From a virus, in IMG/VR virus record IMGVR_UViG_3300042541_001664, positions 1-64,000 of that record: a stretch of 64,000 nt of DNA; one strand, 5' to 3'. Made by a program: the position numbers and the translations under genes. The notes beneath the pieces are model-generated. The model was not told the DNA's origin and ran no database searches. It worked only from the letters and a program-made list of their open reading frames with translations. Of this stretch, positions 177-62,037 are shown one piece after another; position 1 is the first letter of the stretch; every line of letters starts with the position of its first letter.

Positions 177-1016
177 TTAGGTAAAATACACTATTGCCCA
201 TTGTAGGGCTGTATTAGATGTATCTTTTTTGGCTACAACCATTGTGGGGTTTTTGGGTAATAGGCTGTTTGTTATTCTATTATCTAGTTGTTCTTCATTA
301 TCATATATAATGGACATTGATTTTATCATTGTATTACCGGGATTAAAGGATACACTAAAATCACTACTATTAAAGGTTATTGTATTTGGATCTATGGAGA
401 TGTTCTTTGTTTCGGTTTGTAACTTGGTTCTTAGTTCATTCATACTATTGGCTTTTATTGTTGTTGGGGTTGTTGCGTTAGAAGTATTAGTAGGGGGTTG
501 TTCAATAGCATAAAATATTTGTTTATACTTATGATTATCCCCAACAATTGAAATATGAAATGGACCAAATGTTTTTATAATATTACTTTTGTAATGTGCT
601 TTTAATCTGCCTTCTATACCCTTAATATTTATATCATATCTATCTAGGTATGTTTGCCCTGATTTATTTACAACTCCTGGTATTCCTATCGCCCCTCTTG
701 TTGTAAAGTATTTATGGGGAACTTCATTTGGTTTAACCATTTCAACATCAACATCTCCTTTGGTTTCAATGGTATTTCCATTTATGGTTGTTGATATTCT
801 TACATCAACAACTCTATAATCTCCACTCTTTAATTTTAATCCAACATTATATTCCAAATCATCATCTGATGCTTTTAAACTAAAACCATGTACCGTATCC
901 CAGTTTGGATTGGGGTATGGTTGTGTAATGGTATGGCTTACAGTTTCAATCTGGGCTTGCTCATTTATGATTCCCATTACTTCTTTTATTCTATAAATGT
1001 TTTCTTGCAAATTCAT
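177..1016 (-). CDS. Hypothetical protein with N-terminal LxE leader (MNLQENIYRIKEVMGIINEQ), candidate virion protein
   Basis: 279 aa ORF; ATATTTAT motif 14 nt upstream (1031-1038). Confidence 0.75.
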   Translation of the reverse strand: MNLQENIYRIKEVMGIINEQAQIETVSHTITQPYPNPNWDTVHGFSLKASDDDLEYNVGLKLKSGDYRVVDVRISTTINGNTIETKGDVDVEMVKPNEVPHKYFTTRGAIGIPGVVNKSGQTYLDRYDINIKGIEGRLKAHYKSNIIKTFGPFHISIVGDNHKYKQIFYAIEQPPTNTSNATTPTTIKANSMNELRTKLQTETKNISIDPNTITFNSSDFSVSFNPGNTMIKSMSIIYDNEEQLDNRITNSLLPKNPTMVVAKKDTSNTALQWAIVYFT

Positions 1017-1046
1017 ATTTTAATTTTTATATAAATATATGTGGAT

Positions 1047-1073
1047 ATAAAAAACCCCCAGAACACTAATTTG
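1047..1073 (+). repeat. 27 bp direct repeat, copy 1 (copy 2 at 2499-2525)
   Basis: ATAAAAAACCCCCAGAACACTAATTTG identical at both sites. Confidence 0.85.
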
Positions 1074-1114
1074 CAAATATAGATAATTTTGCTTATAGTT
1101 AAAATAAAAAGAAT

Positions 1115-1936: not shown

Positions 1937-2497
1937 ATGACTTTAAAAGAAAACATCAATAGGATTAGGGTTCTTATGGAAGGTGATAAATCTGATGTAT
2001 ATTATCATGGGACATCAAACCAAGATTTTAATGAAGATGATTTAAGACCAAATGAGAGGGGATTAATCTTTTTTACAAAGCATAAGGAAATTGCATATAG
2101 ATATGCTATGGATTTTAATCATTTAGAATATTCTGAACCAGACTATAATAATGTTAGAATATTATCTTATAGGCTTAATGTGAAGAATACCTTTGACCCA
2201 GAACAATATGATGAGGATCCAGAGTATATTGAACTTGTGGCAACCAAGGGTGATTTTTCTTATGTCCAACTTGAAAGGGGTCAGATTAGAGATTATAATG
2301 AAGCCGCATCAGAAGCCCTTTATGATTGTGATTGGTCTGTTCTGGAATCAAAACCATTTATTGACGAATTAAAAGCAAGGGGGTTTGATTCCATATATAT
2401 TGATAATTCCCCCCATTATAAGATGAATTATAGGGATGAAATATTCACAGGTAAGGATATTGCAATATTCTATCCAGAGTTGGCAACACCTGCTTAA
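1937..2497 (+). CDS. ADP-ribosyltransferase-like protein with LxE leader
   Basis: YYHGTS...GLIFFT...AYRYA...LNVKNTFD...GFDSIYI...IAIFYP pattern resembles phage ART-fold (ART-PolyVal-like) domains; leader MTLKENINRIRVLME. Confidence 0.6.
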   Translation: MTLKENINRIRVLMEGDKSDVYYHGTSNQDFNEDDLRPNERGLIFFTKHKEIAYRYAMDFNHLEYSEPDYNNVRILSYRLNVKNTFDPEQYDEDPEYIELVATKGDFSYVQLERGQIRDYNEAASEALYDCDWSVLESKPFIDELKARGFDSIYIDNSPHYKMNYRDEIFTGKDIAIFYPELATPA

Positions 2498-2555: not shown

Positions 2556-3239
2556 TTATATGGCCACTTCAGCATTTAGTTTCTTATGCAATCTAATTAA
2601 CAATTGTGTTATATCTCTTGGGGTTATGCCATTATTTTCATCTGATAATTGAATAGATTGATTATCAGAACCAATAAAAAATTTAGCTTTTAATGTGTCA
2701 ATAAATGATTCTTCGGTTTCAACTATATCCCCATCCTCATTTCTCACATAATATTGATGAATTTTTAATGTTGAAATAGCATTATAATTTATATCCCTCT
2801 CCCTTGTTGTCATACCTTCAGATGATGAATTAATAGATAGGGATGGTTCTTTGTCCGCCTTAAATTTAATTGTATATTCCAATAGTATTGCAATATTGGA
2901 ATCAAATTCCACATGCTTCTTTAAGGAAGATTCAACGCTATGTATTGTTATTGGTAAATTTCTATGATAACCAGTTTCATATCTTTTCATTAATGTCAAC
3001 CCATCAAAATATTGCTCCATCTTTTTTGCAATATTATCTGCCATTATAGTTAAATGATTTGGCATTTCCAAAAAAGAATCCTTCTGGCTTCTCCTCCTGG
3101 CTGCAAAGGATCCAGTTTCATCTTTATACTTGTTTGCAGCAAGGGCTGATCTATTCTTTATGCTTGGGCTTAATTCAGCAATTACCTTAGTAACCAAATT
3201 TGATACATCTTCTTCTGTTAGTCTTACTATTTTTTTCAT
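2556..3239 (-). CDS. Hypothetical protein with LxE leader (MKKIVRLTEEDVSNLVTKVIAE)
   Basis: 227 aa ORF; ATATTTAT motif at 3256-3263. Confidence 0.75.
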   Translation of the reverse strand: MKKIVRLTEEDVSNLVTKVIAELSPSIKNRSALAANKYKDETGSFAARRRSQKDSFLEMPNHLTIMADNIAKKMEQYFDGLTLMKRYETGYHRNLPITIHSVESSLKKHVEFDSNIAILLEYTIKFKADKEPSLSINSSSEGMTTRERDINYNAISTLKIHQYYVRNEDGDIVETEESFIDTLKAKFFIGSDNQSIQLSDENNGITPRDITQLLIRLHKKLNAEVAI

Positions 3240-3693: not shown

Positions 3694-3744
3694 TATCTAC
3701 TTATTTTTCCTTTTATAAATCCAGGATAAACCATTTCTTTTAAT
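3693..3744 (-). pseudogene. Orphan LRR C-cap remnant (LKEMVYPGFIKGKISR*)
   Basis: About 51 nt matching the 3' end of the 4210..4800 gene with 2 mismatches; no start codon. Confidence 0.8.
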
Positions 3745-3745
3745 A

Positions 3746-16380: not shown

Positions 16381-16980
16381 TTATTGCATTTTACTTTTTA
16401 CCATATTATAAAAGTATTTGCTAATATCATTTGGGGATGTTATGTTTTTGCTTTTAAGATCATCCCTAAATCTAATTATCATACTTTTTATTGATTGAAC
16501 TGATATATTTCTATATGGTGAATTTGCCCTATAATTCTTATCAATTAAATCTTTTTTCTGTAATTCTCTTATCTTTCTCATTGCAAATTCATCAGCAACC
16601 TCTTCTGTCTGTTTCATAAACTTGGCGGCCTCATCAATGCTAACATCACCAGAATAAACGCCATACATAATTTTATCACCATATTTCTTAAACTGGAATT
16701 GATGTGCAACCTCGTGGAAAATAACAAAAACCAAAAAACTTAAATTATCCCCAATCATATTTGAGTTTATCAAAACGCCATTATGTAATGCCAATCCTAG
16801 TGCTGGATAATTAAATTTTGCAAACTCAATTTTCTTACATCCAGATTCTTCAATAAAATCTAACATTTCCACGTATAAAGAATCAGATATATCATACTCT
16901 GCTTGTATCTTATTTAAAAAGATAGTTATACCATCAGTTTCCTCATTAATTAGTGTTTTAAAAATTTCTATTAGTTTCAT
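16381..16980 (-). CDS. HExxH metallopeptidase-like protein with LxE leader
   Basis: MKLIEIFKTLINEE; FHEVAHQFQ...EEVADEFA. Confidence 0.7.
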   Translation of the reverse strand: MKLIEIFKTLINEETDGITIFLNKIQAEYDISDSLYVEMLDFIEESGCKKIEFAKFNYPALGLALHNGVLINSNMIGDNLSFLVFVIFHEVAHQFQFKKYGDKIMYGVYSGDVSIDEAAKFMKQTEEVADEFAMRKIRELQKKDLIDKNYRANSPYRNISVQSIKSMIIRFRDDLKSKNITSPNDISKYFYNMVKSKMQ

Positions 16981-16984
16981 ATCA

Positions 16985-18652
16985 TTAATCTGTTCTAAAT
17001 ATTATCCAGGTATCATCACAAGCATATACCTCTTCCCACTCACCAGTATAAGACGATAAAGTTGCATACTGATCTATTTTAAACATCTCCAAGGCAAATG
17101 CATCCATATTAAAATAATTTTCCTTATCAAAATCATAATCGTTCATAAATGATATGGGATTATTTTCATATACCTCATATCTTGAATCTATTGCAGCCTG
17201 AATTAACTCTTCAGAAATTTCATCTGGGCGGGCATTTATATATTCAATTTCATTTTCCAAATAATCTATTCTATCTTCATCTGTTGCTGTTTCAAGTTCC
17301 TTTTTTATTTCTTGAATTTCTTTTTCTTGGGCAGAACTTAAAACTCTATCATCAATATAATCTTTAGGTGAATCATATATCATTTCTGAAAAAAAATCAT
17401 ATATTTCATCATTATCCATTTTAATTACCTTATCAAAATTAATACCCATTCTCTTTAATTTTGTATAATAGGGTTCTTTTAAAATATAATCAAACTGATT
17501 ATTATAACTATCTGCAATTGATTCTAATGCATTTATACGTGCAGTTTCCTCATCATAAATTGTATATGTAACATTAGTTTCTTCCAAATCATCATAAAAA
17601 GTAAACTCAGTATGACTAAAATTAATATTATATTCATCAATTAATGATTTCTTAATATCATTATATTCATTTATTTTTTCACCAAATTCACTATCAGATA
17701 ATTCACTAGAATTTACTATTGAATTTATTAGTTTGGCAAAATATAAACTTTCTTGCCTTGATGCTATATCTACCCCACTCTTACCTGAAAGGAATTTAAA
17801 TGCTGCTAATCTTCTGCAATCCTCCCTAGACGCACCTTTTATACTTTCACCCTGAATGCGGGCTTCATTTTGCTCAATTTCCTCATCACTAATAATTAAA
17901 TCAATTCTTTTTCTAATTGTATCAGCATATTTTTTAAAATCTAAATCAGTTAATCTAAAATCTTCACCTGATTGATATTCAGATCCAAACGATTTTATAA
18001 AATAATCACCATCTTGATTTTTTAATTCAAGCAATTTAACAATATACTTATGGTAAATTGATTCAACTTTTTTGTTGAACCTTCCCTTCAATTGATAAAC
18101 AACCCCAGACTTAATGGCTGCTGTGGCAACTGATTTATTTGTAACTTTACCAGAAGTTTTTAATTCATTAACTCTTAAAGAATATATAACCCCCTTGCCT
18201 GACCTACCACAATGTCCCATTCTTTCAGCCTCTTCTGTGCAGGGATTTTGGTTTAATCTAACCCAATAGTATCCTATACCATCATTATCTCTAAAATCTA
18301 ATATAACTTTGTTTTTTTCATCATATTCAAAATCATATTCTTTAGCCTTTAAACTTTTATGCCAAGTTTCTTGCATTTCAACTAATGTATCAAAATCAAC
18401 ATTTCTTATTGTTTGGATATTACCATTTAATCCAACTCTAATCCAATCAATAATTCCTGTTATTTTTTCTATTTTTGATTTAATCCTTTTATCCTTTATT
18501 TTCTTTGCAATCCACATAGATAATTTGCCAGCCGTAGCATAAAGCAGTTCAGCATCAGATTGGGTTAACTTTGTTATTTTAACCAGATTATCAATTGTAG
18601 CTTTATTTTCAGTTAGAATACCAAATTGACTCTCTGTTATAATTATTTTCAT
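16985..18652 (-). CDS. Large acidic protein with LxE leader and a PcfJ-like segment
   Basis: MKIIITESQFGILTE; EAERMGHCG...IYSLR...QLKGRFN; ATATTTAT at 18672-18679. Confidence 0.7.
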   Translation of the reverse strand: MKIIITESQFGILTENKATIDNLVKITKLTQSDAELLYATAGKLSMWIAKKIKDKRIKSKIEKITGIIDWIRVGLNGNIQTIRNVDFDTLVEMQETWHKSLKAKEYDFEYDEKNKVILDFRDNDGIGYYWVRLNQNPCTEEAERMGHCGRSGKGVIYSLRVNELKTSGKVTNKSVATAAIKSGVVYQLKGRFNKKVESIYHKYIVKLLELKNQDGDYFIKSFGSEYQSGEDFRLTDLDFKKYADTIRKRIDLIISDEEIEQNEARIQGESIKGASREDCRRLAAFKFLSGKSGVDIASRQESLYFAKLINSIVNSSELSDSEFGEKINEYNDIKKSLIDEYNINFSHTEFTFYDDLEETNVTYTIYDEETARINALESIADSYNNQFDYILKEPYYTKLKRMGINFDKVIKMDNDEIYDFFSEMIYDSPKDYIDDRVLSSAQEKEIQEIKKELETATDEDRIDYLENEIEYINARPDEISEELIQAAIDSRYEVYENNPISFMNDYDFDKENYFNMDAFALEMFKIDQYATLSSYTGEWEEVYACDDTWIIFRTD

Positions 18653-27120: not shown

Positions 27121-27614
27121 TTCTTGCCTTTTATAACACCCAAGCAATGCTTAATGTATTCTCTCCCCCTTGGTGAAACGCTTTCATCATTATAGACTTT
27201 TTCTAAATCTTTAACTAGTTCTTCACCGTGCTTATTTTCTTTATATAATTCAATTATTTTATCCATAGCAGAAACACATTGATTACTTGTTTCATCAAAG
27301 TAATTGTATGGTTTATATTGATTTATCATCTTAGATACTTTAAAGCATAAGTCTTCACCCCTATCGTTTAGGTTTGGTCTTGTTCTCATTGTTTTCAAAG
27401 TTTCAATCATATCTGTTAGTGAATTAATCCCAGATTTTCTAATTTTAATTCCTTCGATATAATCTTCTTGTTCGTCTTCACCAACAATTTCTTCCAGACT
27501 CTTAACATTATTTTTGTGGCAGAATTTTCTATCTTCTTCTTTTGATTTCTCATTAAGATATAGATTTTTTATTCTAATCTTGTCTTCATTACTTATGCTA
27601 AATTTTATACTCAT
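27117..27614 (-). CDS. Hypothetical protein with leader (MSIKFSISNEDKIRIKNLYLNE)
   Basis: Start trimmed to ATG 27614; ATATTTAT at 27637-27644. Confidence 0.7.
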   Translation of the reverse strand: MSIKFSISNEDKIRIKNLYLNEKSKEEDRKFCHKNNVKSLEEIVGEDEQEDYIEGIKIRKSGINSLTDMIETLKTMRTRPNLNDRGEDLCFKVSKMINQYKPYNYFDETSNQCVSAMDKIIELYKENKHGEELVKDLEKVYNDESVSPRGREYIKHCLGVIKGKN

Positions 27615-34156: not shown

Positions 34157-35020
34157 TTAAAGTAATCTACTTATTTTTTCTGCTAATTCGCTAATAAGAT
34201 ATTTTGAACTATTTTGAAAATATCTAAAATGGTCAAAACGCAAGTAATTTTCATTAAATTCATCTTTTGGTAAAACCATATCTTTTTTAAAGTCAAATCT
34301 TGTAATACCTTCTGGGTTTTTATATCCCTTTGTAAAATCTTTATTGAGGGTGCTTATGGTCTCTAATTCATCATCCTTTGGATTATATGCGTGAAATGGT
34401 CTACCTTTAACTTTAGTCATAAATTGGGCTTCATCTCCAAAGTTATAATGTGAAAATGTATCTGTGTCATCTAATCCAGGATATGATGTATTATTTGTTC
34501 CATATAAATATTTACTTCCACTATCCTTTTCAAAAATCATTACAGCATCTTGGCAAAATAGTTTTCCTAATTTTATAATGTTATCAATAAACTTGGGGTC
34601 TTCATTAAGATTTACAACAAACAAAGAATCTTCTTTTTTTTCTTTAGGTTCTGCTCTTACAATAACTTCTCCTGATTCTGCATCCAATTCTTTTTGTTTA
34701 TCACTAATATAATTTTCAATATAATTACCTTTAACATTTGTTATGGCATACTTGTTATTTAACAAAAAGGCTTTAAGTGCCTTATTTCTTCCTTTGTTGT
34801 CAGATATATTTATTTTTGTTAAATCTTCTGTATCATATAAACAATTAACTAATTCATCCCTAAATGCTGTTATGATTGCACAATCATACTTTTTAGTAAG
34901 ACTTAATACCCTACTCATAGATGATTCAGTTAGGATTTCTGGAACTTTTGGTTTGTTATTTAAATGTGAATAGTCAGTTTCATTCAATAACTTATTAAAT
35001 TTGTCTATTAAATCTCTCAT
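34157..35020 (-). CDS. Phage hypothetical protein with leader (LLNE, ILTESSMSRV)
   Basis: 287 aa; ATATTTAT at 35033-35040. Confidence 0.75.
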   Translation of the reverse strand: MRDLIDKFNKLLNETDYSHLNNKPKVPEILTESSMSRVLSLTKKYDCAIITAFRDELVNCLYDTEDLTKINISDNKGRNKALKAFLLNNKYAITNVKGNYIENYISDKQKELDAESGEVIVRAEPKEKKEDSLFVVNLNEDPKFIDNIIKLGKLFCQDAVMIFEKDSGSKYLYGTNNTSYPGLDDTDTFSHYNFGDEAQFMTKVKGRPFHAYNPKDDELETISTLNKDFTKGYKNPEGITRFDFKKDMVLPKDEFNENYLRFDHFRYFQNSSKYLISELAEKISRLL

Positions 35021-36041: not shown

Positions 36042-36113
36042 TTTGTTTTGTTTTGGTGTGATGCAAAGATACAAAAAAAATGGAAATAATGATATATTTA
36101 TATAAAAAAAATT

Positions 36114-36569
36114 ATGAAAACAATAAGATTAACAGAATCTGATTTAAATAAAATAATAAGAAGAATTATATATGAACAAGATGACCAGACATTCGACCAA
36201 ATGTTAGATACTATAGAAAAATCAATAACAATAAAACCAAATAGTATTAATAGATTTTCTAAATCAATAAATTGGGGGTATAATAATACAAATGTAACAT
36301 ACCCCTGGCGTTACAGTATTTCTTTTACTTTTGAAGGTGCAAATAATTTTATTACAATAGAATTAGCTGTTTCACCATCGACAACAACTATATCTAAAGA
36401 ACTTAGAGCCATTTTAAATACTTACCCAGATATTTCAAAAGAAATATTAGGTGGGGGAGACCGATTTATGTTAACTTATAATTTTAATATGGACAAATTA
36501 AATACCGTTATTGAATTCAGTAAAAAAATATTACAAGTTTGTAGTAAATTTACAACTGGTAGAATTTAA
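36114..36569 (+). CDS. Hypothetical protein with LxE leader (MKTIRLTESDLNKIIRRIIYEQ)
   Basis: ATATTTAT at 36094-36101. Confidence 0.75.
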   Translation: MKTIRLTESDLNKIIRRIIYEQDDQTFDQMLDTIEKSITIKPNSINRFSKSINWGYNNTNVTYPWRYSISFTFEGANNFITIELAVSPSTTTISKELRAILNTYPDISKEILGGGDRFMLTYNFNMDKLNTVIEFSKKILQVCSKFTTGRI

Positions 36570-37094: not shown

Positions 37095-37604
37095 ATGAAT
37101 TCTTATTTTTTTAAAATAACAGATGAAGAGAAAACAAATATTCTAAGCAAACACAGAGAATTATATGATGGCTATGTTTCTATGCAAAAAAAACAAAGCC
37201 CACAACAAATAAGTGTGTATAATGACATTAGCGATAACAAAGGTTTTACCTTAAAAAATAGCGATATTATAAGGGAAAGCAAAGATAATATGTGCGAGCA
37301 ATGTGGCAGCAAAATGAACGAAAAGGAATGTCCTGAATGTGGTGCTATGAACGAAAATTGGGATACAGAGGATTTAAATTTAGATAATTCTATGGATTTT
37401 ATTGAAAGTGAAGAGTATCTATATGAACTAAATATTGAGGAGAATAAAAAATACTCCCCAATAATGGAATCTTTTATTAGAATTGCTAGTGAAATGAATT
37501 TAATTTATGAAACCCCAAAAGTTAATAAAACAATCAAATCTAATCGTTTAAATGAAGAATTAGATAATATTAAAAGTTTTATGACTAAAATTAATGCTTA
37601 TTAA
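37095..37604 (+). CDS. Hypothetical protein with leader, small Cys-rich zinc-ribbon segment and C-terminal tag
   Basis: ITDEEKTNIL; CEQC...CPEC; LNEELDNIKSFM; ATATTTAT at 37072-37079. Confidence 0.7.
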   Translation: MNSYFFKITDEEKTNILSKHRELYDGYVSMQKKQSPQQISVYNDISDNKGFTLKNSDIIRESKDNMCEQCGSKMNEKECPECGAMNENWDTEDLNLDNSMDFIESEEYLYELNIEENKKYSPIMESFIRIASEMNLIYETPKVNKTIKSNRLNEELDNIKSFMTKINAY

Positions 37605-39505: not shown

Positions 39506-40597
39506 ATGAAAAGAACACATTTAAATAATATATCTGAAAAAGAAAAAAATGATATAAGACATTTGTATAATATATTAATATCAGAACAACCAGCAAGTGC
39601 ACCACAAACAGCATCGTCTAATGATTTTATTGATTTTAATGATTATGTTAATTTAGCAAGAGATATTGTTAACTTAAAACTTTGTTCTTTTGATACTGAT
39701 TTTGAAAACATATATCCAGCAAGAACTAAGGAAAATAAAATTGTAATTGTTGCCACAGCCAAAGTTGATAGGGTTAAAGGTGCTAATATTTTCTATTATA
39801 AAAAAGGGGAAACTATTGAATTTAATGTTGGAAGCCCTGTAGAGGGGGGAATTTATTTTACTAATAAAACTAGTAATTTAAAATTTTATTTTAATTGTCC
39901 AGAATTGGGTAAAGAAGTTACAAGAGTTAGTACGAAAGTTGAAGATTTATTAGGTCAAAAAGGATTTTTTAAATCAAATAGTGTACAATTGCAAAATTAT
40001 ACAAATCAGTTAAATGACCCAAGGTATTTTGAAGAAAAATCTATACAAGAATTAGCAATTGAGTATAAAAATTCAATGGGATTTAATCCATTATATTATA
40101 TGGGGCCAAAGTTTTTCTACAAAAAATTACAAAATACAACTGAAAGTAATAATTTAACATCAGAACAGCAACAAGTTCAAAAGACTTTTGCGGAAAAATA
40201 TGGTGCAGTTGTTGAACATGTAGTTTCTGATGCAGAGAAAGTTAATTATACTAAAATAAATTTAAAAGACTACAATAATACATTTAAAGATGATTATTTT
40301 ATGTTAGTACCTAACCAAAGAATACAAGATGTTCAAAGAGATTTTAAACAAGGAAATACTTTATTATCAGTAGATAAAGAATCTGTATTTGGCTGTACTA
40401 GGTTATTGAAAACGTACAAAGAATTATTCTATAAATACAAAAATAATGAATACACCACAGATTCGGCACTTTCAAATATCAAGCCGAAATTAGAATATTG
40501 CTACCGTAAATTTAGAACAACAAAACTTGGTGGAGAATTATTCCCATTTACAAATAGTAATGATAAAAATTTAGGCCCATTCTTATTAAAAATTTAA
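39506..40597 (+). CDS. Hypothetical protein with leader (ISEKEKNDIRHLYNILISEQ)
   Basis: 363 aa ORF. Confidence 0.75.
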   Translation: MKRTHLNNISEKEKNDIRHLYNILISEQPASAPQTASSNDFIDFNDYVNLARDIVNLKLCSFDTDFENIYPARTKENKIVIVATAKVDRVKGANIFYYKKGETIEFNVGSPVEGGIYFTNKTSNLKFYFNCPELGKEVTRVSTKVEDLLGQKGFFKSNSVQLQNYTNQLNDPRYFEEKSIQELAIEYKNSMGFNPLYYMGPKFFYKKLQNTTESNNLTSEQQQVQKTFAEKYGAVVEHVVSDAEKVNYTKINLKDYNNTFKDDYFMLVPNQRIQDVQRDFKQGNTLLSVDKESVFGCTRLLKTYKELFYKYKNNEYTTDSALSNIKPKLEYCYRKFRTTKLGGELFPFTNSNDKNLGPFLLKI

Positions 40598-42784: not shown

Positions 42785-43816
42785 ATGAAAAAATTAATGC
42801 AAATTGATGAAAACAAATTGATTGGGATTATAAAGAGTATGTTAGCGGAACAATCTGTTGATCCTATTCGTGCAACTATAAATAACACTCGTCCTAATAT
42901 TAATACTTTTGATATCCCAACTCAAAAAGTACAAGGAATTGATCGTATGGGGGACGATGATATTGATTACTTGGCACAACAACAAGCAGCACAACAACAA
43001 GCAGCACAAAAGCAAGCAGCACAACCACAGCGAAAAACTAAGGCGTGTGCTGGTTATACGGAAAAAGCAACAGGTCCTTATAAATTATGTGATAGCGGTA
43101 AAGCCATTATAGCATTACAAACAAAATTAGGATTTAAAGGTAACGCTATAGATGGTAAACTTGGTGTATTAACTATGAGGGCGGCTCAAAAGCAAGGCCT
43201 TGTACAAAACAATACAATTCTTGATACTAAAATAAATGATTTTAAAAGTAATGTGGTAACTACAAATACCAAGCAGAGTAATAGTAGTTCTGGGTATATA
43301 ACAATAAATAAAAAGTATTTGGGTTTACCAGGTGCAATATTTCAAGCATATAAAAAGGCAGAGTGGATTAATTTAACAAATCCAGATGGTAGAACTACAG
43401 TTACAACTAATTGTTCTAATTTAAAGACTAATATGTATTATAAATATATTCCTACAGAACAAAAAGGTTGGGTAACCCCAACAACTACAAAGAATTTAAG
43501 TGGATTACTTAATTATTATTTTTGTCAAACAAAAACAAATGCAATAAATGTCACTAACGAAGTTATAACTGAACTATCTAAAGAACGTTCAAAATATTTT
43601 TTTGGTTCAACTTTCACTGCTATTAAAAAAAGGGATGGTGGTATTCATATAAAAAATGAAAAAGGTGGAGTAAACCTTGCTACAACTTGTGGTGAACTAA
43701 ATACTAATATATTTAGAAGGAATTATAGAATGCCAAATTCTCAAGTTGGCACTACTATTGAATTACCTAAATTAAGCGAAAAAATTAAACCATTATTTTG
43801 TAGTACAAATAAATAA
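42785..43816 (+). CDS. Protein with LxE leader and a peptidoglycan-binding-like domain
   Basis: MKKLMQIDENKLIGIIKSMLAEQ; IIALQTKLG...IDGKLGVLTMRA; ATATTTAT at 42763-42770. Confidence 0.7.
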   Translation: MKKLMQIDENKLIGIIKSMLAEQSVDPIRATINNTRPNINTFDIPTQKVQGIDRMGDDDIDYLAQQQAAQQQAAQKQAAQPQRKTKACAGYTEKATGPYKLCDSGKAIIALQTKLGFKGNAIDGKLGVLTMRAAQKQGLVQNNTILDTKINDFKSNVVTTNTKQSNSSSGYITINKKYLGLPGAIFQAYKKAEWINLTNPDGRTTVTTNCSNLKTNMYYKYIPTEQKGWVTPTTTKNLSGLLNYYFCQTKTNAINVTNEVITELSKERSKYFFGSTFTAIKKRDGGIHIKNEKGGVNLATTCGELNTNIFRRNYRMPNSQVGTTIELPKLSEKIKPLFCSTNK

Positions 43817-44217: not shown

Positions 44218-45078
44218 ATGTTATATATAAATGAAAATGAAAAAAAACATATAAAATCATTGTATTATACTAAAGATGTAAATGAACAAGTTGAACTTTT
44301 AAATCCTATGAAAGCACCTACCTTAATAAAAGGTAGTCTGTTTGATACATATAATAAAGTTATAACTAGGTATTCTGGCGAAGAGAAAATTCACAATATA
44401 TTAGATGATACTGAACTTGCTGCTGCATTTGCAACAGCAGGTGTTGGCGATGCATATATTGGAACTTTACATTCACTTTATTGGTTTTATGAAGGTTTTA
44501 TGGATCAACTACAAGAATCGAGAATTAAAAAATTTATTCTTGGTATTGTTGAATTAGTTTTAGCTATTCCTGGTTTAAGTGAACTTAAATTTTTGGATAG
44601 GTGGAAAGATTTTATAAAAAAAAGTCCAATCACTCAGACAATAGAAAAATTATCTAAATCTATGTCACCTTTTTGGTCAAAAATAAGAACATATTTTTTA
44701 CAAGCCATAGCTAGTTTAAGAAAACTTGATGATTTTTTAGTTAAACAACAATTTGAGTTTTTGTCTAGGGTCTGTAAAAAAATAATTAAATCAATTAATA
44801 ATATAAAATTATGGTTTGATGATATGATTATATATTTCCAAAAATTAAGTGGGTCATTTTCAAAAAACATAAAATCAACTATTAAAACATATTCTAATCA
44901 AACTAAAGACAATAATGTTGTAGATATTATAGATAAAACTATAGAGTATGGTACACCCATTAAAGGAGTTGCGAAAAATACAAATAATATGCAGATGTCA
45001 ACACAAGATACAACAAATCCCATATACTATAAGCCAAAAGTCAATCCAAATCAACCTAATGTAAAATATACAAACTAA
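44218..45078 (+). CDS. Hypothetical protein with leader (INENEKKHIKSLY...VNEQ)
   Basis: 286 aa; ATATTTAT at 44194-44201. Confidence 0.7.
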   Translation: MLYINENEKKHIKSLYYTKDVNEQVELLNPMKAPTLIKGSLFDTYNKVITRYSGEEKIHNILDDTELAAAFATAGVGDAYIGTLHSLYWFYEGFMDQLQESRIKKFILGIVELVLAIPGLSELKFLDRWKDFIKKSPITQTIEKLSKSMSPFWSKIRTYFLQAIASLRKLDDFLVKQQFEFLSRVCKKIIKSINNIKLWFDDMIIYFQKLSGSFSKNIKSTIKTYSNQTKDNNVVDIIDKTIEYGTPIKGVAKNTNNMQMSTQDTTNPIYYKPKVNPNQPNVKYTN

Positions 45079-47866: not shown

Positions 47867-48103
47867 CTACTCTTTAGTATTTTTATTAGTAATATACGTT
47901 GCAAATTTTTCACTAGCAATAAAACCAAGTCCAGCTATTGCCAACCAGACTAGTCCTTCAAATATATAATCTGTTATTGTATAATTTGAAAATAAATCAA
48001 CAATTGACGCAAAAATTATTGTTAGCGATGCCGAAATACCAATAGAACGTTTGCTTGATATCTCCCCACTGGAACTTAGTAATGATTTTAAAAATTTTTT
48101 CAT
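47867..48103 (-). CDS. Holin-like 2-TM protein
   Basis: ISSKR motif followed by two hydrophobic helices; overlaps the M23 gene. Confidence 0.65.
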   Translation of the reverse strand: MKKFLKSLLSSSGEISSKRSIGISASLTIIFASIVDLFSNYTITDYIFEGLVWLAIAGLGFIASEKFATYITNKNTKE

Positions 48104-48816
48104 TTTAATAAAATTTTTATACGATTTATCTCATTATTTAAGTTTTCATTATATTGAATTTTACCATCGCTAGATAATCCAGTACTATTAACAGAAATAC
48201 TTCCATCGCTAGATAGTCCAGTACTATTAACAGAAATACTTCCATCGCTAGATAGTCCAGTATCACGAACAGAAATACTTCCATCGCTAGACAATCCAGT
48301 ATCCTTAACAGAAATACCCCCACTTTTACTTGGAGCAGTATTGGTACCTTGGGTTGCATTTTTTATATCTGCTTGATTAAATTCTACTGATGTTTTATTT
48401 ATATGACTTAATGGGTTAACAGTTGAACCATTTTTCTTCATAGCAAAGTGTAGATGCGCACCCCTTGAACTTCCTTTATTTGGATCATCTGCACCGCCAC
48501 CACTATAACCTAATAGTGTTCCGCTTTTAACTGTTTGATTATTTGATACTGAAAATGACTTTAAATGGCAAAATATAGCCTCAAACCCATCACCGTGATT
48601 AATTTTTACAATTCCACCACATCTAGGCTCATCAGGTCTTACTTTTACAACAATCCCATCGGCTATTGCATATACTGGTGTGCCAGATGGTACTGCAAAA
48701 TCAACACCATCGTGTTTATATGACCCACGATTTTCACCCCATTTTGAACTTACTCTTGTGTTATTAAAACCTTTTATTGGTGGGGAGAATCTTTTTGCTT
48801 CATTTAAAAATTTCAT
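48100..48816 (-). CDS. M23 family peptidoglycan endopeptidase with a repeat linker
   Basis: HDGVD, HLK, GAHLHF; ATATTTAT at 48832-48839. Confidence 0.9.
   Translation of the reverse strand: MKFLNEAKRFSPPIKGFNNTRVSSKWGENRGSYKHDGVDFAVPSGTPVYAIADGIVVKVRPDEPRCGGIVKINHGDGFEAIFCHLKSFSVSNNQTVKSGTLLGYSGGGADDPNKGSSRGAHLHFAMKKNGSTVNPLSHINKTSVEFNQADIKNATQGTNTAPSKSGGISVKDTGLSSDGSISVRDTGLSSDGSISVNSTGLSSDGSISVNSTGLSSDGKIQYNENLNNEINRIKILLK
48164..48318 (-). repeat. Four 39-bp tandem repeats encoding ISVxxTGLSSDGS
   Basis: CCATCGCTAGA recurs at 48164, 48203, 48242 and 48281. Confidence 0.9.
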
Positions 48817-59536: not shown

Positions 59537-59925
59537 ACAATTTAATTTTCATAAACGCATTAGGTACAAATTATAGAGGTGATAATATATATGAGTTTAT
59601 ATTTTCATCATCGAAATCTGCTTGGGGGGAGGATTGGGAATCTAAACCAGCAAACGGTAACCCCAGACCACCAGATTTAGAGTATGTTAGTAAAGTAGGA
59701 ACATTAAATGCAAAATCATATATATTTGAACTAGTACAAAACTCGGATTATTTTTCAATGAATGATTCTGTTGAAGGTATAATAGCATTAGGCTGGGAAA
59801 TGGATGAGGATATTAAAAATCGTCTTATTTTTAGATTTGGGGAAACCGAAGAAAATATAAAAAATAAACTTTATTCAAGGGATTTAATCTTAGAATTTGA
59901 AAAAATTAGTGTTTATGAGAATTAA
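59533..59925 (+). CDS. Hypothetical protein
   Basis: 130 aa; ATGA overlap with the upstream gene. Confidence 0.75.
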   Translation: MNNLIFINALGTNYRGDNIYEFIFSSSKSAWGEDWESKPANGNPRPPDLEYVSKVGTLNAKSYIFELVQNSDYFSMNDSVEGIIALGWEMDEDIKNRLIFRFGETEENIKNKLYSRDLILEFEKISVYEN

Positions 59926-60694
59926 TAAAAAAATACTACAATTAGTACAAGAAGGTTTTCAATTGAAAACTTTACAAAAAATGAGTGAAAGTAATGTGAA
60001 TTATTTATACACTAAACTAATGAATGAGCAAACTTCCACAATTAAAGGGACAATTGCTACTAAAAATGAACCAAAAGCAATTCAGTTAGCAACTAAGGGT
60101 TATAATGTTAGGCTTGAGAAAAAGGAAATGGGTGAGGCAAAGAAAAAACCTCAATCAAAAAATCCTTTTGCAATTTGTACAGCACAATTAAAAAAAGAAT
60201 TTGGAACATCTGAAAGAAGTGAATGGACAAAACCACAACTTAAAAAATATGAAAGATGTGTTATGGATGTTAAGAAAGGAATAAAAGAAGGTGTAAATCC
60301 CGTAGATGTTTTTATTGAAAATGAAATGGATAGAATGATTGAATCCTACACTCAACCGAAAATAACAAAAAGCGAATTATTATTGCATTTAAGAGAACAA
60401 GATGCCCCAACTATTAAACCAGTTGTAAAACCAGCAAAACCAACTACAAAACCAACAAGGAGAGATAATCCATTTATTAACCCAAACCCAAAAGTTAATC
60501 CAGATCCAAAAGCCAATACTGAAACAAAACCAATTGTAAAACCAGCAAAACCAACAACAAAACCAACAAGGAGAGATAATCCATTTATTAACCCAAACCC
60601 AAAAGTTAATCCAGACCCAAAAGCAGTCTCACCTGAAAAAGCAAAAAACGCTATTATAGATAATATTATGCAATTACTAAATTTTGAAAACTAA
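59915..60694 (+). CDS. Hypothetical protein with a duplicated Pro/Lys-rich segment
   Basis: Start MRINKK; LMNEQ and LREQD sites. Confidence 0.75.
   Translation: MRINKKILQLVQEGFQLKTLQKMSESNVNYLYTKLMNEQTSTIKGTIATKNEPKAIQLATKGYNVRLEKKEMGEAKKKPQSKNPFAICTAQLKKEFGTSERSEWTKPQLKKYERCVMDVKKGIKEGVNPVDVFIENEMDRMIESYTQPKITKSELLLHLREQDAPTIKPVVKPAKPTTKPTRRDNPFINPNPKVNPDPKANTETKPIVKPAKPTTKPTRRDNPFINPNPKVNPDPKAVSPEKAKNAIIDNIMQLLNFEN
60416..60624 (+). repeat. Two copies of a ~98-bp segment (111-bp period) encoding KPxVKPAKPTTKPTRRDNPFINPNPKVNPDPKA
   Basis: Near-identical copies at 60416 and 60527. Confidence 0.9.
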
Positions 60695-62037
60695 TGAAGG
60701 ATATTAACAAATTAATAAAAAGAAAACTAAAGGAGCAATTAGATTATAGTGGTTCTGAAAGAATGGATCCAAAACTTGAAAAGAAGTTGGCTGACCCCGA
60801 AAGTATGTTTGCTAAGAACCCAGCATTAAAGAGGGGTTCTTTAGATGTTCAAAAATTATATAGCAGTTCATTTAATGAATTGGTTGAAAAGGTCAGGAAT
60901 ATGACTGGCAAAGATGACTTGACTCCTAATGAATTGGCTAGTGTAATATCAAGCACTATGATGAGAAACGTTCAAGCAATACAGCAGATTGAGAGTTCGA
61001 GTAGTGATGAATTAGTAGAAATAGCAATTGAAGAAACATTAAATGAGATGGAAGTTTCCGATGAAACATTTACTATTAACGCAACATTAGGTATGCCAGG
61101 TAGTGATGTGGTGGGAAAAATGAAAAAAGCTAAAGAGAAAATAGAAGATGAATTAACTTTTGAGGAACAAGAGGTATTAGATGATGAAGTTTTTAAAAGA
61201 GATATTATCAATGCTTTAATCGGTGGGGTAGCAAAAAAAGTACAGTACATTTATGAAAAACCAGAAGTTAAAGCAAGATTGGATGAAATTAATCCAAGAT
61301 TATTTCAATTATATAAATCAACATTACCATTAATTGACCTTCATTTTTATTATTTAAATGAAGATTATATGGATATGGCTAGTGGTGGCGGTGGCGTTGC
61401 TGGTGCTGTTGAAGTTGAGGATGAAGAAGATGAAGAAACAAATGAATTAAAAACTGTTATTAATGCGGCTGGATTTATATTTCCAGTTCTATGTCATGAA
61501 ATAGGTAAGGGTATTCAAGAAGCATTAGCAAGACAAGGTTATCCATCTGACACTAATATGGCTAATATGACATTAGGTCAAGCAGACACATTAAAAGCCG
61601 AAACAGAGGGTTTAAGAATTGGACCAGCTATATTAAAGAAGATAAGAGATATTTTACCAATGGAGGTATTGGATAAATCAGATGTTGGATTAATCAATTT
61701 CTTTTTTGTTGAATTATATAAGATACCTGCAAAAGATTTTCTTAGTTTAATGAAATATGTAATATCAGATAACCCCCAAGATAAGCAATATGCTGAGAGG
61801 GAGTTTGAAGAGTTAGTTCAATTAGCAAGACAAGGCAAACAAAGATATATTGATTATTTAATGAGCCAATATGATGAAGATGAGGAAGAGTTTGATGATG
61901 GTGGATTAGGAGACCAAGATGGTGAAGATGATTCATATTCTGGTGGAAAACAAGGTGGATTTGACCCAAATGATTATGTAAATGTTAATTTAAAAGATTT
62001 ATTAAAAGATTTACGAGATGCAAATATGTTGAATTAA
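60694..62037 (+). CDS. Acidic hypothetical protein with leader (MKDINKLIKRKLKEQ)
   Basis: 447 aa; FPVLCHEIGKG; acidic tail. Confidence 0.78.
   Translation: MKDINKLIKRKLKEQLDYSGSERMDPKLEKKLADPESMFAKNPALKRGSLDVQKLYSSSFNELVEKVRNMTGKDDLTPNELASVISSTMMRNVQAIQQIESSSSDELVEIAIEETLNEMEVSDETFTINATLGMPGSDVVGKMKKAKEKIEDELTFEEQEVLDDEVFKRDIINALIGGVAKKVQYIYEKPEVKARLDEINPRLFQLYKSTLPLIDLHFYYLNEDYMDMASGGGGVAGAVEVEDEEDEETNELKTVINAAGFIFPVLCHEIGKGIQEALARQGYPSDTNMANMTLGQADTLKAETEGLRIGPAILKKIRDILPMEVLDKSDVGLINFFFVELYKIPAKDFLSLMKYVISDNPQDKQYAEREFEELVQLARQGKQRYIDYLMSQYDEDEEEFDDGGLGDQDGEDDSYSGGKQGGFDPNDYVNVNLKDLLKDLRDANMLN

What the first reader, a model, noticed from the sequence alone, without database searches (positions are those of the whole stretch)
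177..62037. Portable (L/I/V/F)xE-terminated amphipathic tag on about 20 unrelated proteins: candidate capsid-loading signal
Seen: unrelated ORFs begin with short related helices. Examples are LQENIYRIKEVMGIINEQ (177), LKENINRIRVLME (1937), IVRLTEEDVSNLVTKVIAE (2556), IRLTENDLQLIIRRIISEQ (29395), IRLTESDLNKIIRRIIYEQ (36114), IITESQFGILTE (16985), KLIEIFKTLINEE (16381), KLLNSLKSIISEA (32194), ISEKEKNDIRHLYNILISEQ (39506) and IDENKLIGIIKSMLAEQ (42785). A similar helix sits at the C-terminus of the M23 peptidase (ENLNNEINRIKILLK) and of 37095 (LNEELDNIKSFM). Established: T4 internal proteins carry a short capsid-targeting leader that the prohead protease gp21 removes after (L/I)-x-E. Inference: a modular tag that loads diverse cargo (ART-like enzyme, metallopeptidase, M23, peptidoglycan-binding and annexin-like proteins) into the head for injection. 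The LRR N-cap LKNIFNFLEE may be a variant of this tag.
Basis: partly seen in the sequence, partly recalled or inferred. Interest (0 to 1): 0.8.

Follow-up and report, generated by a model that had tools for sequence, protein, structure and literature searches.

The report
Portable leader tags on phage proteins
A large uncultured lake phage puts a few short, highly conserved helical leaders on many otherwise unrelated small proteins, most likely as address labels that load them into the phage head, where the head protease trims them.

Summary
The window is 64 kb of a 73-kb fragment of a ~300-kb lake phage with a T4-type head module: TerL, gp20 portal, S77/gp21 protease and gp23 capsid protein.

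Three leader families are robust:
- A: MNLQENIxRIKEVMG.
- B: MKKxIRLTESDLxRIVKRVIxEQ.
- C: MKRLIITEEEKxRILxLH/Y.
A fourth family (D), the LRR N-cap and some listed examples are weak.

Tag B:
- It starts at the initiator Met in 117 of 120 distinct ORFs and lies at the C-terminus in 3.
- 113 of these ORFs fall into 69 unrelated cargo families.
- A profile search finds it in 7,898 protein clusters (50% identity) in metagenomes.
- It is nearly absent from cellular genomes.
- All 4 complete tag-bearing genomes encode the S77 protease.

Tag B holds an invariant L-T-E, which is T4's capsid maturation site, and ends in [IL]-x-E-Q. The same hydrophobic-x-E-Q stop closes families A and C. Tagged genes share a late-promoter-like motif with the head genes.

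Known cargo domains are ART-like, SAM lyase, peptidoglycan-binding and M23. These would suit injected proteins.

Best reading (about 0.55): capsid-targeting propeptides that work like the T4 CTS but are not homologous to it. Neither packaging nor cleavage has been shown.

The parts
29395..29463 (+). Tag B on a 248-aa ORF of unknown function: MAKTIRLTENDLQLIIRRIISEQ
   Evidence: (53 bits). A late-type motif lies 24 nt upstream.
36114..36179 (+). Tag B on a 151-aa ORF: MKTIRLTESDLNKIIRRIIYEQ
   Evidence: 55.6 bits. AF2 predicts a helix at residues 8-20 and a break at 21-26, at low confidence. Late motif 19 nt upstream.
3171..3239 (-). Tag B on a 227-aa ORF: MKKIVRLTEEDVSNLVTKVIAEL
   Evidence: (49.4 bits). 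Late motif 23 nt upstream.
42785..42853 (+). Divergent tag B on a 343-aa ORF: MKKLMQIDENKLIGIIKSMLAEQ. By eye the body has a peptidoglycan-binding-like stretch.
   Evidence: 47.5 bits. Late motif 21 nt upstream of this ATG. Pfam gave no family.
18605..18652 (-). Intermediate between tags B and C on a 555-aa ORF: MKIIITESQFGILTEN
   Evidence: Core regex. Relatives carry MK[IY]I[IL]TESQ leaders. Late motif 26 nt upstream.
957..1016 (-). Tag A on a 279-aa ORF: MNLQENIYRIKEVMGIINEQ
   Evidence: 29.4 bits, starts at Met1. Late motif 21 nt upstream.
1937..1981 (+). Tag A on a 186-aa ART-PolyVal-like ORF: MTLKENINRIRVLME
   Evidence: Pfam ART-PolyVal E = 2e-5, below the cut-off. PF18760 is precomputed on 3 of 7 homologue clusters. 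The tag is conserved in 6 orthologues, with indels right after E15.
48103..48147 (-). C-terminal copy of tag A on the M23 peptidase: ENLNNEINRIKILLK
   Evidence: Pfam Peptidase_M23 E = 6e-27. Tag A HMM 16.9 bits, ending 1 residue from the ORF end.
39506..39589 (+). Tag C on a 363-aa ORF: MKRTHLNNISEKEKNDIRHLYNILISEQ
   Evidence: 26.2 bits. LISEQ stop. The gene lies in an operon behind 37095.
44218..44289 (+). Tag C on a 286-aa ORF: MLYINENEKKHIKSLYYTKDVNEQ
   Evidence: 27.4 bits. Late motif 23 nt upstream.
27543..27614 (-). Tag C on a 165-aa ORF: MSIKFSISNEDKIRIKNLYLNEKS
   Evidence: 26.5 bits. Late motif 29 nt upstream.
37095..37172 (+). Tag-C-like leader on a 169-aa zinc-ribbon ORF: MNSYFFKITDEEKTNILSKHRELYDG. 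It was called by eye and is not hit by the C HMM at E <= 0.01.
   Evidence: The orthologue in G039 keeps the leader. Late motif 22 nt upstream.
37545..37580 (+). Weak tag-A-like stretch at the C-terminus of the same ORF: RLNEELDNIKSF
   Evidence: Regex hit only. Not found by the tag A HMM.
16939..16980 (-). Family D leader on a 199-aa ORF with an HEVAH motif: MKLIEIFKTLINEE. Weak family.
   Evidence: family D found only its 5 seeds. Pfam gave no family.
32032..32073 (+). Family D leader on a 51-aa ORF: MKLINVAKSLILEA. Weak family.
32194..32235 (+). Family D leader on a 640-aa ORF: MKLLNSLKSIISEA. Weak family.
34979..35020 (-). Unclassified N-terminal helix on an S-AdoMet-lyase-like ORF: MRDLIDKFNKLLNE
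   Evidence: Pfam S-AdoMet_lyase E = 4e-6, just under the cut-off. The G039 counterpart scores 2.5e-9, above the cut-off. Late motif 19 nt upstream.
36095..36102 (+). Example of the late-promoter-like motif TATTTATA, 19 nt upstream of a tagged gene
   Evidence: ATATTTATA occurs 30 times in the contig, and 22 of these lie within 60 nt upstream of a same-strand start.
62122..63885 (+). Large terminase, the first gene of the T4-type head module. The module runs on beyond the window: portal 63895-65769, core-slot ORFs 65794-66995, S77 protease 67033-67734, acidic scaffold-like ORF 71021-72730 and gp23 from 72759.

Best explanation
The tags are capsid-targeting propeptides. Each is a ~15-25-residue amphipathic helix that sits directly after the initiator Met, and rarely at the C-terminus or between two domains.

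Proposed mechanism:
1. The helix docks its carrier onto the assembling scaffold core of the T4-type prohead.
2. The prohead protease of the gp21/S77 family then cuts at the hydrophobic-x-Glu motifs that bracket the helix. In tag B these are L-T-E|S at residues 7-9 and [IL]-x-E|Q at residues 20-22.
3. This frees the cargo inside the head, from which it leaves with the DNA at the next infection.

Shown here: the tags exist, they are portable, N-terminal and virus-specific, the protease and a T4-like head module are present, and the cleavage-type motifs are there.

Inferred only: binding to the core, cleavage, packaging and ejection.
For: 1. T4-type head genes in T4 order on the same contig.
- They are TerL, the Portal_T4 portal (2.8e-76), two core-slot ORFs, the Peptidase_S77 protease (4.7e-23), an acidic scaffold-like ORF and Gp23.
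- T4's own order 20-67-68-21-22-23 was read from its record.

2. The tag B logo from 111 distinct N-terminal copies.
- E is present in 111/111 and L in 109/111 of the L-T-E core.
- E is present in 104/111 at the closing [IL]-x-E.
- Conservation collapses right after that E.

3. T4's own sites, read from its record, have the same form: gp23 FLTE|A at residue 65, gp24 LLRE|S at residue 10, and IPII/IPIII MKTYQEFIAE|A.

4. A [LIVMF]-x-E-Q stop closes three families that are otherwise dissimilar in sequence.
- A: 3 of 8. B: 65 of 113. C: 17 of 23.
- The background is 1.8% per 30 residues.
- In family C the stop lies at variable distance (residues 19-33) and outside the HMM that defined the family.

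5. The phage's own capsid protein carries LINE|A at residue 60, ahead of the conserved fold, in all 10 distinct relatives printed.

6. The core-slot ORF 65794 has 4.3 [LI]xE per 100 aa. The contig mean is 1.7 and T4 gp22 has 5.95.

7. Position of the tag.
- B: 117 of 120 distinct copies N-terminal, 3 C-terminal.
- C: 23 of 23 N-terminal. A: 8 of 9 at Met1.
- In the complete relative G039, 18 of 25 core-regex hits start at residues 3-5.

8. Portability.
- 113 tag-B ORFs fall into 69 cargo families.
- 7,898 clusters at 50% identity match the tag profile at E <= 0.001, and 596 at E <= 1e-10.

9. Virus-specific distribution.
- At least 585 pattern hits (275 confirmed) in IMG/VR.
- 17 pattern hits (6 confirmed) in 185,579 prokaryote genomes.
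- 0 of 300 other Bacteroidales genomes.

10. Link with the protease.
- 4 of 4 tag-bearing records that are at least 90% complete encode S77. So do 16 of all 35 searched; the rest are 13-64% fragments.
- The Prochlorococcus single-cell-genome contig that carries the tag also encodes S77.

11. A distant 484-kb phage (LR756508) has seven small ORFs with MK[LIV][TSQ]E..L leaders in its head module. Six of them lie in a row just upstream of its S77 gene.

12. Co-regulation.
- The motif TATTTA[TG][AT] sits 19-29 nt upstream of TerL, core-slot ORF 65794, the protease and scaffold-like ORF 71021.
- It also precedes 5 of 5 regex-tagged genes that have their own upstream region, against 22 of 51 untagged genes (P = 0.02).
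- In G039 the figures are 6 of 12 against 37 of 167 (P = 0.04).
- 15 of 23 tag-B genes in relatives have the motif.

13. Cargo fits ejected effectors.
- ART-PolyVal-like, S-AdoMet lyase, PG_binding_1, OmpA, LysM and M23.
- T4 Alt, an ART, is packaged and injected (PMC5512222 passages).

14. Precedents in print.
- T4 internal proteins are diverse, with only the CTS conserved (PMC3012670).
- Both termini of T4 Alt are propeptides (PMC9026906).

15. 0 of 32 Pfam-annotated ORFs are tagged, against 13 of 55 unannotated ORFs (P = 0.0016).
Against: - There is no direct evidence of packaging, cleavage or ejection. No cultured relative with a virion proteome was found.
- The tag HMMs score 1.2 bits or less against T4 IPI-III, gp21, gp22, gp24, gp67 and gp68. 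The tags are therefore not homologues of the T4 CTS.
- Tag B is about 22 residues long and far more conserved than a cleavage site needs, so the helix has a function of its own that is not identified.
- Hydrophobic-x-E is common in this AT-rich proteome: 52 of 81 ORFs have it in residues 6-33.
- The late-type motif also precedes genes that are not expected in virions, such as the ClpB-like ATPase, an amidase and a methyltransferase. Co-regulation is therefore not specific.
- Three Bacteroidales genomes carry tag-B ORFs with no S77 found, one in a chromosomal-looking context. These assemblies may be incomplete.
- The cultured T4-like Flavobacterium phage immuto has no tag B.
- The capsid protein's LINE|A does not align exactly with T4's E65.
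- 29 internal copies among the top 150 hits fit a plain interaction helix as well as they fit a cleavable linker.
Confidence: 0.55

Rival explanations
1. The tags are docking or oligomerisation helices for a late function outside the capsid. They might gather many small proteins into a complex at the cell envelope or in a phage-made body, through tag-tag helix bundling or a common hub protein. There would be no proteolytic removal.
For: - The helix is strongly conserved over about 22 residues, more than a cleavage site needs.
- Second copies lie inside or at the C-terminus of 32 of the top 150 proteins.
- Much of the recognisable cargo binds peptidoglycan: PG_binding_1, OmpA, LysM and M23.
- The late motif is shared with lysis-type genes.
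- A few copies occur in cellular genomes with no S77 found.
Against: - It does not explain why three unrelated helix families all end in hydrophobic-x-E-Q at variable spacing.
- It does not explain why the invariant residues of tag B form the T4 capsid site L-T-E.
- It does not explain why the tag nearly always starts at Met1-4.
- It does not explain why tagged ORFs cluster next to the protease gene in LR756508.
- The tagged peptidoglycan-binding proteins have no signal peptide, so they need another route to the periplasm.
Confidence: 0.22
2. The conserved 5' ends are expression cassettes, not protein signals. In this reading a promoter plus the first codons is kept for efficient or bS21-dependent late translation, or as a recombination handle for swapping genes.
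For: - Tagged genes often carry the promoter-like motif at a fixed distance.
- Relatives of this phage encode ribosomal protein bS21 in the head module (Chen et al., 10.1101/2021.10.11.463225, passages read).
- 69 cargo families share one leader, as cassette exchange would predict.
Against: - Copies within the contig differ at synonymous sites while keeping the peptide.
- The tag also occurs at C-termini and inside proteins: 3 of 120, and 32 second copies among 150 proteins. A 5' mRNA element cannot act there.
- 8 of 23 tag-B genes in relatives lack the motif and sit inside operons.
- Recombination at the leader may well explain how the tag spreads. It does not explain what the tag does.
Confidence: 0.06
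3. Compositional chance: in a 29% GC genome, K/I/N/E/L-rich N-termini look like related amphipathic helices.
For: - [LIVF]xE is found in the N-window of 52 of 81 ORFs.
- Family D found only its own 5 seeds.
- About 7 further helices I noted by eye (e.g. 21685, 40601, 18706, 60694) have no support outside the window.
- The LRR N-cap is part of a whole-length paralogue family.
Against: - Chance is excluded for families A, B and C. See the controls, the HMM hits with strict N-terminal position in independent loci and the 7,898 clusters.
- The exact 10-residue pattern is no more frequent than my rough chance estimate in 596 Gb of cellular genomes (17 hits). It is far more frequent in viral contigs.
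Confidence: 0.05

Closest known systems
T4 capsid targeting sequence (CTS) of internal proteins IPI-III and Alt, removed by the prohead protease gp21
   Same: - A short N-terminal leader on diverse, fast-evolving proteins.
- The leader ends in hydrophobic-x-Glu.
- The phage encodes a gp21-family protease in a 20-67-68-21-22-23-like module.
- One cargo is an ART-like enzyme, as is Alt.
- C-terminal propeptides also exist in T4 Alt (PMC9026906).
   Different: - No detectable sequence similarity.
- The tag is 15-25 residues long, not 10.
- There are three or more distinct leader families in one genome.
- The sequence is far more conserved across cargo.
- The scale is larger: 18 core-regex leaders among 355 ORFs of a complete relative and thousands of clusters.
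- Tandem tag-domain-tag-domain proteins occur.
- Packaging and cleavage are untested.
Propeptides of ejection and inner-body proteins of phiKZ-like giant phages (phiKZ, 201phi2-1, SPN3US)
   Same: - Giant phage heads hold about 50 proteins, many of which are processed after Glu by a gp21-related protease.
- N-termini are conserved between otherwise diverged paralogues.
- Propeptides hold several sites (PMC5694885 passages; PMC9026906).
   Different: - Those propeptides are mostly longer than 100 residues, with (S/A/G)-x-E sites.
- They are shared among paralogues rather than being portable across unrelated cargo.
- This phage has a T4-type module rather than a phiKZ-type one.
MuF-fused polyvalent proteins and other virion-packaged effectors
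   Same: Enzymes of the conflict type, such as ART, are delivered with the DNA through a head-associated module (PMC5512222 passages).
   Different: - There the address is a folded MuF or portal domain fused into a large multidomain protein.
- Here a short helix sits on many separate small proteins.
- 1 of 117 top tag-B proteins has any Pfam domain.
Encapsulin cargo-loading peptides (recalled, not from any call)
   Same: Short portable terminal peptides address unrelated cargo to the inside of an HK97-fold shell, and they work at either terminus.
   Different: Encapsulins have no portal, no DNA and no maturation protease. Their peptides are not removed. No sequence relation was tested.

Membership tests
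T4-type CTS / gp21-processed head propeptides | The phage encodes a gp21-family (Peptidase_S77) prohead protease. | tested here: met
   G000 67033-67734: PF03420 at 82 bits against a cut-off of 27. PHROG 207 head maturation protease, 1.8e-41.
T4-type CTS / gp21-processed head propeptides | T4-type prohead gene module: portal, core proteins, protease, scaffold, gp23. | tested here: met
   Portal_T4 2.8e-76 and Gp23 1.4e-8. The order matches the T4 record. The capsid protein of G039 aligns with T4 gp23 at E = 2e-27.
T4-type CTS / gp21-processed head propeptides | A short leader at the extreme N-terminus of otherwise unrelated proteins. | tested here: met
   117 of 120 tag-B copies are N-terminal. 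There are 69 cargo families among 113 ORFs. All 150 top hits have an N-terminal copy.
T4-type CTS / gp21-processed head propeptides | The leader ends in the protease's consensus, (L/I)-x-E. | tested here: met
   Met at the sequence level only. L-T-E has E in 111/111, and the closing [IL]-x-E has E in 104/111. For the shared x-E-Q stop.
T4-type CTS / gp21-processed head propeptides | Sequence homology to the T4 CTS (MKTYQEFIAE). | tested here: not met
   The tag HMMs A-D score 1.2 bits or less against T4 IPI, IPII, IPIII, gp21, gp22, gp24, gp67 and gp68.
T4-type CTS / gp21-processed head propeptides | The leader is cleaved by the prohead protease during head maturation. | not testable with these tools
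   This needs N-terminomics of virions or an in-vitro protease assay.
T4-type CTS / gp21-processed head propeptides | The leader is necessary and sufficient to put a protein into the head. | not testable with these tools
   This needs a tag-reporter fusion in an infected host. No cultured member of the clade was found.
phiKZ-type inner-body propeptides | Long propeptides (over 100 aa) with (S/A/G)-x-E sites, shared among paralogues. | tested here: not met
   The tags are 15-25 aa with hydrophobic-x-E, and they sit on unrelated cargo. The defining features were taken from PMC5694885.

The most novel reading that the evidence does not exclude
The tags are a general address code of a large, abundant clade of ~300-kb freshwater phages. 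Any protein that carries an A, B or C leader would be loaded into the prohead, possibly by tag-tag helix bundling with the scaffold core. It would then be released by the S77 protease at the flanking hydrophobic-x-E sites and injected with the DNA.

If so, the roughly 7,900 tag-B clusters, almost all without any known domain, form a directly readable catalogue of injected early effectors. That would include anti-defence proteins and cell-wall-acting proteins of uncultured phages. The tandem tag-domain-tag-domain proteins would be polyproteins cut into separate cargoes inside the head.
Probability: 0.3. Interest if true: 0.85.

Novelty: new variant of a known kind. Interest (0 to 1): 0.68.

Why it matters
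How proteins are sorted into a phage head is largely unsolved even for T4. A 2023 review calls the mechanism 'mysterious' (PMC9958956).

What this system offers:
- An unusually sharp and widespread signal: one 22-residue leader on thousands of unrelated small proteins, in a phage group that is common in lakes.
- If the leader is a capsid address, it lets one read the injected proteome of uncultured huge phages from sequence alone.
- It would point to a large pool of candidate anti-defence and cell-wall effectors.
- It would give a second, independent system in which to find the receptor for such leaders.
- It would offer a compact tag for loading cargo into T4-type capsids.

If the leader is not a capsid address, a virus-specific helix of this spread still needs an explanation. 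It also has no entry in the Pfam copy searched.

Tried and rejected
- Complex prediction of tag B with the core-slot protein and the S77 protease gave no verdict. It counts neither way.
- AF2 of the ART-like ORF gave pLDDT 50.5. That is too poor for a fold search, so none was run, and the ART call rests on weak Pfam hits only.
- AF2 of ORF 36114 gave pLDDT 58.7. I used it only for the helix and break pattern.
- The ESM Atlas search with residues 1-30 was uninformative, because a single helix matches many things.
- The search for homologous proteins on residues 1-40 of 36114 found only 4 close orthologues. The word index is too coarse for a tag.
- tblastn of ORFs 29395, 177 and the Prochlorococcus single-cell-genome contig's tagged ORF against GenBank phages found no match.
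- tblastn with the tagged ORF of the alphaproteobacterial MAG contig gave only E >= 5 hits. These served as a lead to LR756508.
- Cultured phage immuto: no tag B.
- RNA evidence: three freshwater metatranscriptome runs hold short contigs over 29395, 36114, 37095, 38172 and ThyX. Contigs in an RNA library do not prove transcription and cannot rank genes or show starts, so I draw nothing from the uncovered parts.
- The idea that the tag is common in gut Bacteroidales was my own recollection. It is rejected: 0 of 300 other genomes.
- The idea that the LRR paralogues are the tag receptors is rejected. The LRR arrays are in G000, and I saw none among the N-termini of G039, which has the tags.
- A 5' mRNA element is rejected because of the internal and C-terminal copies.
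- The search of earlier findings was not open.
- Literature searches found no paper holding the strings RLTESDL, LTESDL or NLQENI. The three ITESQL hits are unrelated software papers.
- No paper on such leaders in huge phages turned up in the searches.
- Supplements were closed. The genome list of the bS21 paper and the T4 CTS figure of PMC5694885 could not be seen.

Full report
**What the window is.**
- The window is the first 64,000 bases of a 73,456-base IMG/VR virus record. CheckV estimates it about 23% complete, which implies a genome near 300 kb. GC content is about 29%.
- Pfam and PHROGs scans of 94 crude ORF calls show a large phage. It encodes a large terminase, ClpP, a ClpB/C-like ATPase, Hsp20, cyclophilin, thioredoxin and ThyX.
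- It also encodes five tandem C5-cytosine methyltransferases flanking an IceA-like nuclease, several cell-wall hydrolases and 18 copies of an LRR paralogue.
- Just beyond the window the contig carries the rest of a T4-type head module. This comprises a Portal_T4 portal (2.8e-76), two ORFs in the slot of T4 genes 67/68, a Peptidase_S77 (gp21-family) prohead protease at 67033-67734, a very acidic 569-aa scaffold-like ORF and the start of a Gp23 capsid protein.
- The T4 record itself reads 20-67-68-21-22-23.

- All quoted peptides are present.
- I compared the N-terminal 30-mers of 65 ORFs, after dropping the LRR and Dcm paralogues and ORFs under 90 aa. They resemble each other more than controls do: 11 pairs score 35 or more, against 1-2 in five sets of internal windows and 1-6 in five shuffles.
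- The top pair, 29395/36114, scores 84, while the bodies of the two proteins score 24.
- The bare (L/I/V/F)xE criterion is useless on its own in this AT-rich proteome. It occurs in residues 6-33 of 52 of 81 ORFs.
- The examples also fall into separate families rather than one tag.

**The families, tested on independent sequence.** A portal search gave 80 related IMG/VR loci. Later searches raised the held sequence to 200 loci and 1.51 Mb.
- Tag B consensus is MKK[IV]I[RK]LTESDLx[RK][IL][VI][KR][RK][VI][IL]xE[Q].
  - Its HMM finds 120 distinct ORFs. 114 start within 6 residues of a Met, 3 start at 7 residues, and 3 lie at the extreme C-terminus.
  - The 113 N-terminal ones of at least 70 aa fall into 69 cargo families by single-linkage BLAST.
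- Tag C (MKRLIITEEEKxRILxLH/Y) gives 23 of 23 N-terminal hits, 14 of them not seeds.
- Tag A (MNLQENIxRIKEVMG) gives 8 hits that start at Met1. A ninth sits at the C-terminus of the window's M23 peptidase.
- Family D (MKLIxxxKxLIxE) finds only its five seeds and stays unsupported.
- In a complete relative of 321,403 bases and 355 crude ORFs (fetched), a degenerate core regex hits 25 times. 18 of these hits start at residues 3-5 of a protein.
- That genome encodes ribosomal protein bS21 inside the head module. This places it among the 293-331-kb freshwater Bacteroidetes phages described by Chen et al. (10.1101/2021.10.11.463225; passages read).
- The window's phage has no bS21 at that spot.

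**Spread.**
- The tag-B profile matches 7,898 cluster representatives at E <= 0.001, and 596 at E <= 1e-10, out of 1.84 billion.
- All of the best 150 have a copy at the N-terminus. 32 also have a second copy, 29 internal and 3 C-terminal, giving tag-domain-tag-domain proteins. The ranking favours two-copy proteins, so 32 of 150 is not a frequency.
- Only 1 of the 117 top hits of at least 100 aa has a Pfam domain, a LysM.
- The tag is viral:
  - A 9-residue pattern hits at least 585 places in IMG/VR, 275 of them confirmed.
  - A 10-residue pattern hits 17 places in 185,579 prokaryote genomes, 6 of them confirmed. Seventeen is about what my rough estimate gives for chance.
  - 0 of 300 other Bacteroidales genomes match.
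- The six cellular hits are:
  - a viral contig in a Prochlorococcus single-cell genome, which also encodes S77;
  - three small phage-like contigs;
  - two Bacteroidales loci in large contigs, one beside WYL and IS1595 genes and one that looks chromosomal.
- I found no S77 in the three Bacteroidales assemblies that I searched for it.

**Why I read the tags as protease-processed capsid leaders.**
- The invariant residues of tag B spell L-T-E, with E in 111 of 111 copies. The tag ends in [IL]-x-E, with E in 104 of 111 copies, and conservation collapses after that.
- In the T4 record the capsid protein is cut after FLTE (residue 65) and gp24 after LLRE. IPII and IPIII begin MKTYQEFIAE|A. The processing facts are from PMC5694885 and PMC9026906.
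- A hydrophobic-x-E-Q stop closes three otherwise dissimilar families: A in 3 of 8 copies, B in 65 of 113 and C in 17 of 23. The background is 1.8% per 30 residues.
- In family C the stop lies at variable distance (residues 19-33) and outside the model that defined the family. That is how a processing site behaves, not one face of a rigid helix.
- The phage's own capsid protein has LINE|A at residue 60 in all 10 distinct relatives.
- The core-slot ORF is dense in [LI]xE, at 4.3 per 100 aa. The contig mean is 1.7 and T4 gp22 has 5.95.
- Two sites bracket the helix. This would let the same module work at an N-terminus, at a C-terminus or between two domains. That step is my inference. T4 Alt gives a precedent for propeptides at both termini.
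- All 4 tag-bearing records that are at least 90% complete encode S77. So do 16 of the 35 searched, and the others are 13-64% fragments.
- A distant 484-kb phage has seven ORFs with MK[LIV][TSQ]E..L leaders in its head module. Six of them lie in a row just upstream of its protease gene.

**Regulation and cargo.**
- The motif TATTTA[TG][AT] sits 19-29 nt upstream of the ATG of TerL, the core-slot ORF, the protease and the scaffold-like ORF. It also precedes most tagged genes that have their own upstream region.
- Presumed early genes instead carry the Bacteroidetes-type TAnnTTTG. That consensus is recalled, not taken from a call.
- The association with tags is modest: 5 of 5 against 22 of 51 (P = 0.02) in the contig, and 6 of 12 against 37 of 167 (P = 0.04) in the complete relative.
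- The motif also precedes a ClpB-like gene, an amidase and a methyltransferase.
- None of the 32 Pfam-annotated ORFs is tagged, against 13 of 55 unannotated ones (P = 0.0016).
- Recognisable cargo domains are:
  - an ART-PolyVal-like enzyme, whose orthologues keep tag A and show indels right after its closing Glu;
  - S-AdoMet lyase;
  - PG_binding_1, OmpA and LysM;
  - the M23 peptidase.
- These activities would make sense in proteins that arrive with the DNA, as T4 Alt and IPI do.

**What speaks against this reading, and what is unknown.**
- Nothing here shows packaging, cleavage or ejection.
- The tags are not homologous to the T4 CTS.
- They are longer and much more conserved than a cleavage site needs, so the helix must bind something that I could not identify.
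- A plain docking or oligomerisation helix with no cleavage remains a fair rival.
- A 5' expression cassette is unlikely, given the synonymous differences and the internal and C-terminal copies.
- Chance remains the default for family D, for about seven other helices seen by eye and for the LRR N-cap.
- Both structure models were of low confidence.
- Short RNA-library contigs over some tagged genes are too weak to use.

**Comparison and verdict.**
- A portable capsid-targeting leader on diverse internal proteins is established for T-even phages (PMC3012670; PMC9026906). Long propeptides on ejection proteins are established for phiKZ-like giants.
- This is a new variant of that kind:
  - several non-homologous leader families;
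  - a leader of about 22 residues with two bracketing sites;
  - tandem and C-terminal use;
  - very wide spread in an abundant clade of uncultured ~300-kb lake phages.
- I found no description of it in the searches, and no Pfam model covers it.
- I put 0.55 on the capsid-leader mechanism and score interest at 0.68.

Noticed in passing
window 49515-49936 (-): A phage-encoded tmRNA: Rfam RF00023, 82 bits, full-length. ARAGORN reads the tag peptide as GNTLETLATLGLVREDAVVAA. My crude ORFs at 49456-49668 and 49848-50015 overlap it and are probably spurious.
   Followed up: partly
window 19448-19601 (-): Two adjacent tRNA genes, tRNA-Pro (TGG) and tRNA-Met (CAT).
   Followed up: no
whole contig, e.g. 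window 36095-36102 (+), 37073 (+), 1030-1037 (-): There seem to be two promoter-like classes. TATTTA[TG][AT] sits 19-29 nt upstream of the ATG of head, lysis and tagged genes; ATATTTATA occurs 30 times, 22 of them within 60 nt upstream of a start. A Bacteroidetes-type TAnnTTTG precedes DNA-metabolism and homing-endonuclease genes. The first class is conserved upstream of tag-B genes in relatives (15 of 23).
   Followed up: partly
window 3343-6985 (-), 21115-21666 (-), 26406-26885 (+), 50097-52587 (+); G000 67736-70605 (+): There are 18 copies of a small LRR-like paralogue with a fixed N-terminus (MEKETLKNIFNFLE), an internal PLTEEDL stretch and a fixed C-terminus (KPGFIKGKI). They stand in tandem arrays, one of them inserted between the protease and scaffold genes. 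I saw none among the N-termini of the complete relative G039.
   Followed up: no
window 9874-16014 (-): An array of five C5-cytosine methyltransferases, plus a sixth divergent one. An IceA-family ORF (Pfam ICEA, 4e-38) is embedded at 10835-11425.
   Followed up: no
G000 71021-72730 (+), beyond the window: A 569-aa ORF with long D/E/M-rich repeats and a basic helical C-terminal part lies in the scaffold slot before the capsid gene. It has no Pfam or PHROG hit. The counterpart in phage immuto is annotated 'DNA polymerase phi-like', which looks like a low-complexity misannotation.
   Followed up: no
G039 (L211 19541-19729, -): Ribosomal protein bS21 (Pfam, 33 bits) is encoded on the reverse strand between the core-slot gene and the protease in the complete relative. 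At the same place the window's phage has an unrelated 146-aa ORF on the plus strand.
   Followed up: partly
window 41336-41992 (-), 53444-55444 (-), 55631-56476 (+): A set of protein-quality-control genes: full-length ClpP (1e-55), a two-domain ClpB/C-like ATPase, Hsp20 and cyclophilin. This ClpP is separate from the S77 head protease.
   Followed up: no
P0012-P0161; e.g. P0021, P0039: Some small acidic proteins carry tag B at both ends. P0161 looks by eye like an L,D-transpeptidase-type domain placed between two tags, but Pfam gave no hit at 1e-4.
   Followed up: partly
G039 199-204 kb (L206/L207): A tandem family of seven ~100-130-aa paralogues, six of them beginning MKY[IL]ITESQ and one MRYIITQTQ. 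The core regex missed them because of the Tyr, so the count of 18 tagged ORFs in G039 is a lower bound.
   Followed up: no
L108 / L215-L216 (Bacteroidales MAG, large contig): A lone 128-aa tag-B ORF sits among what look by eye like housekeeping genes, at GC 53%. A second fragmentary tag match lies on the opposite strand about 100 bases away. No S77 was found in that assembly.
   Followed up: partly
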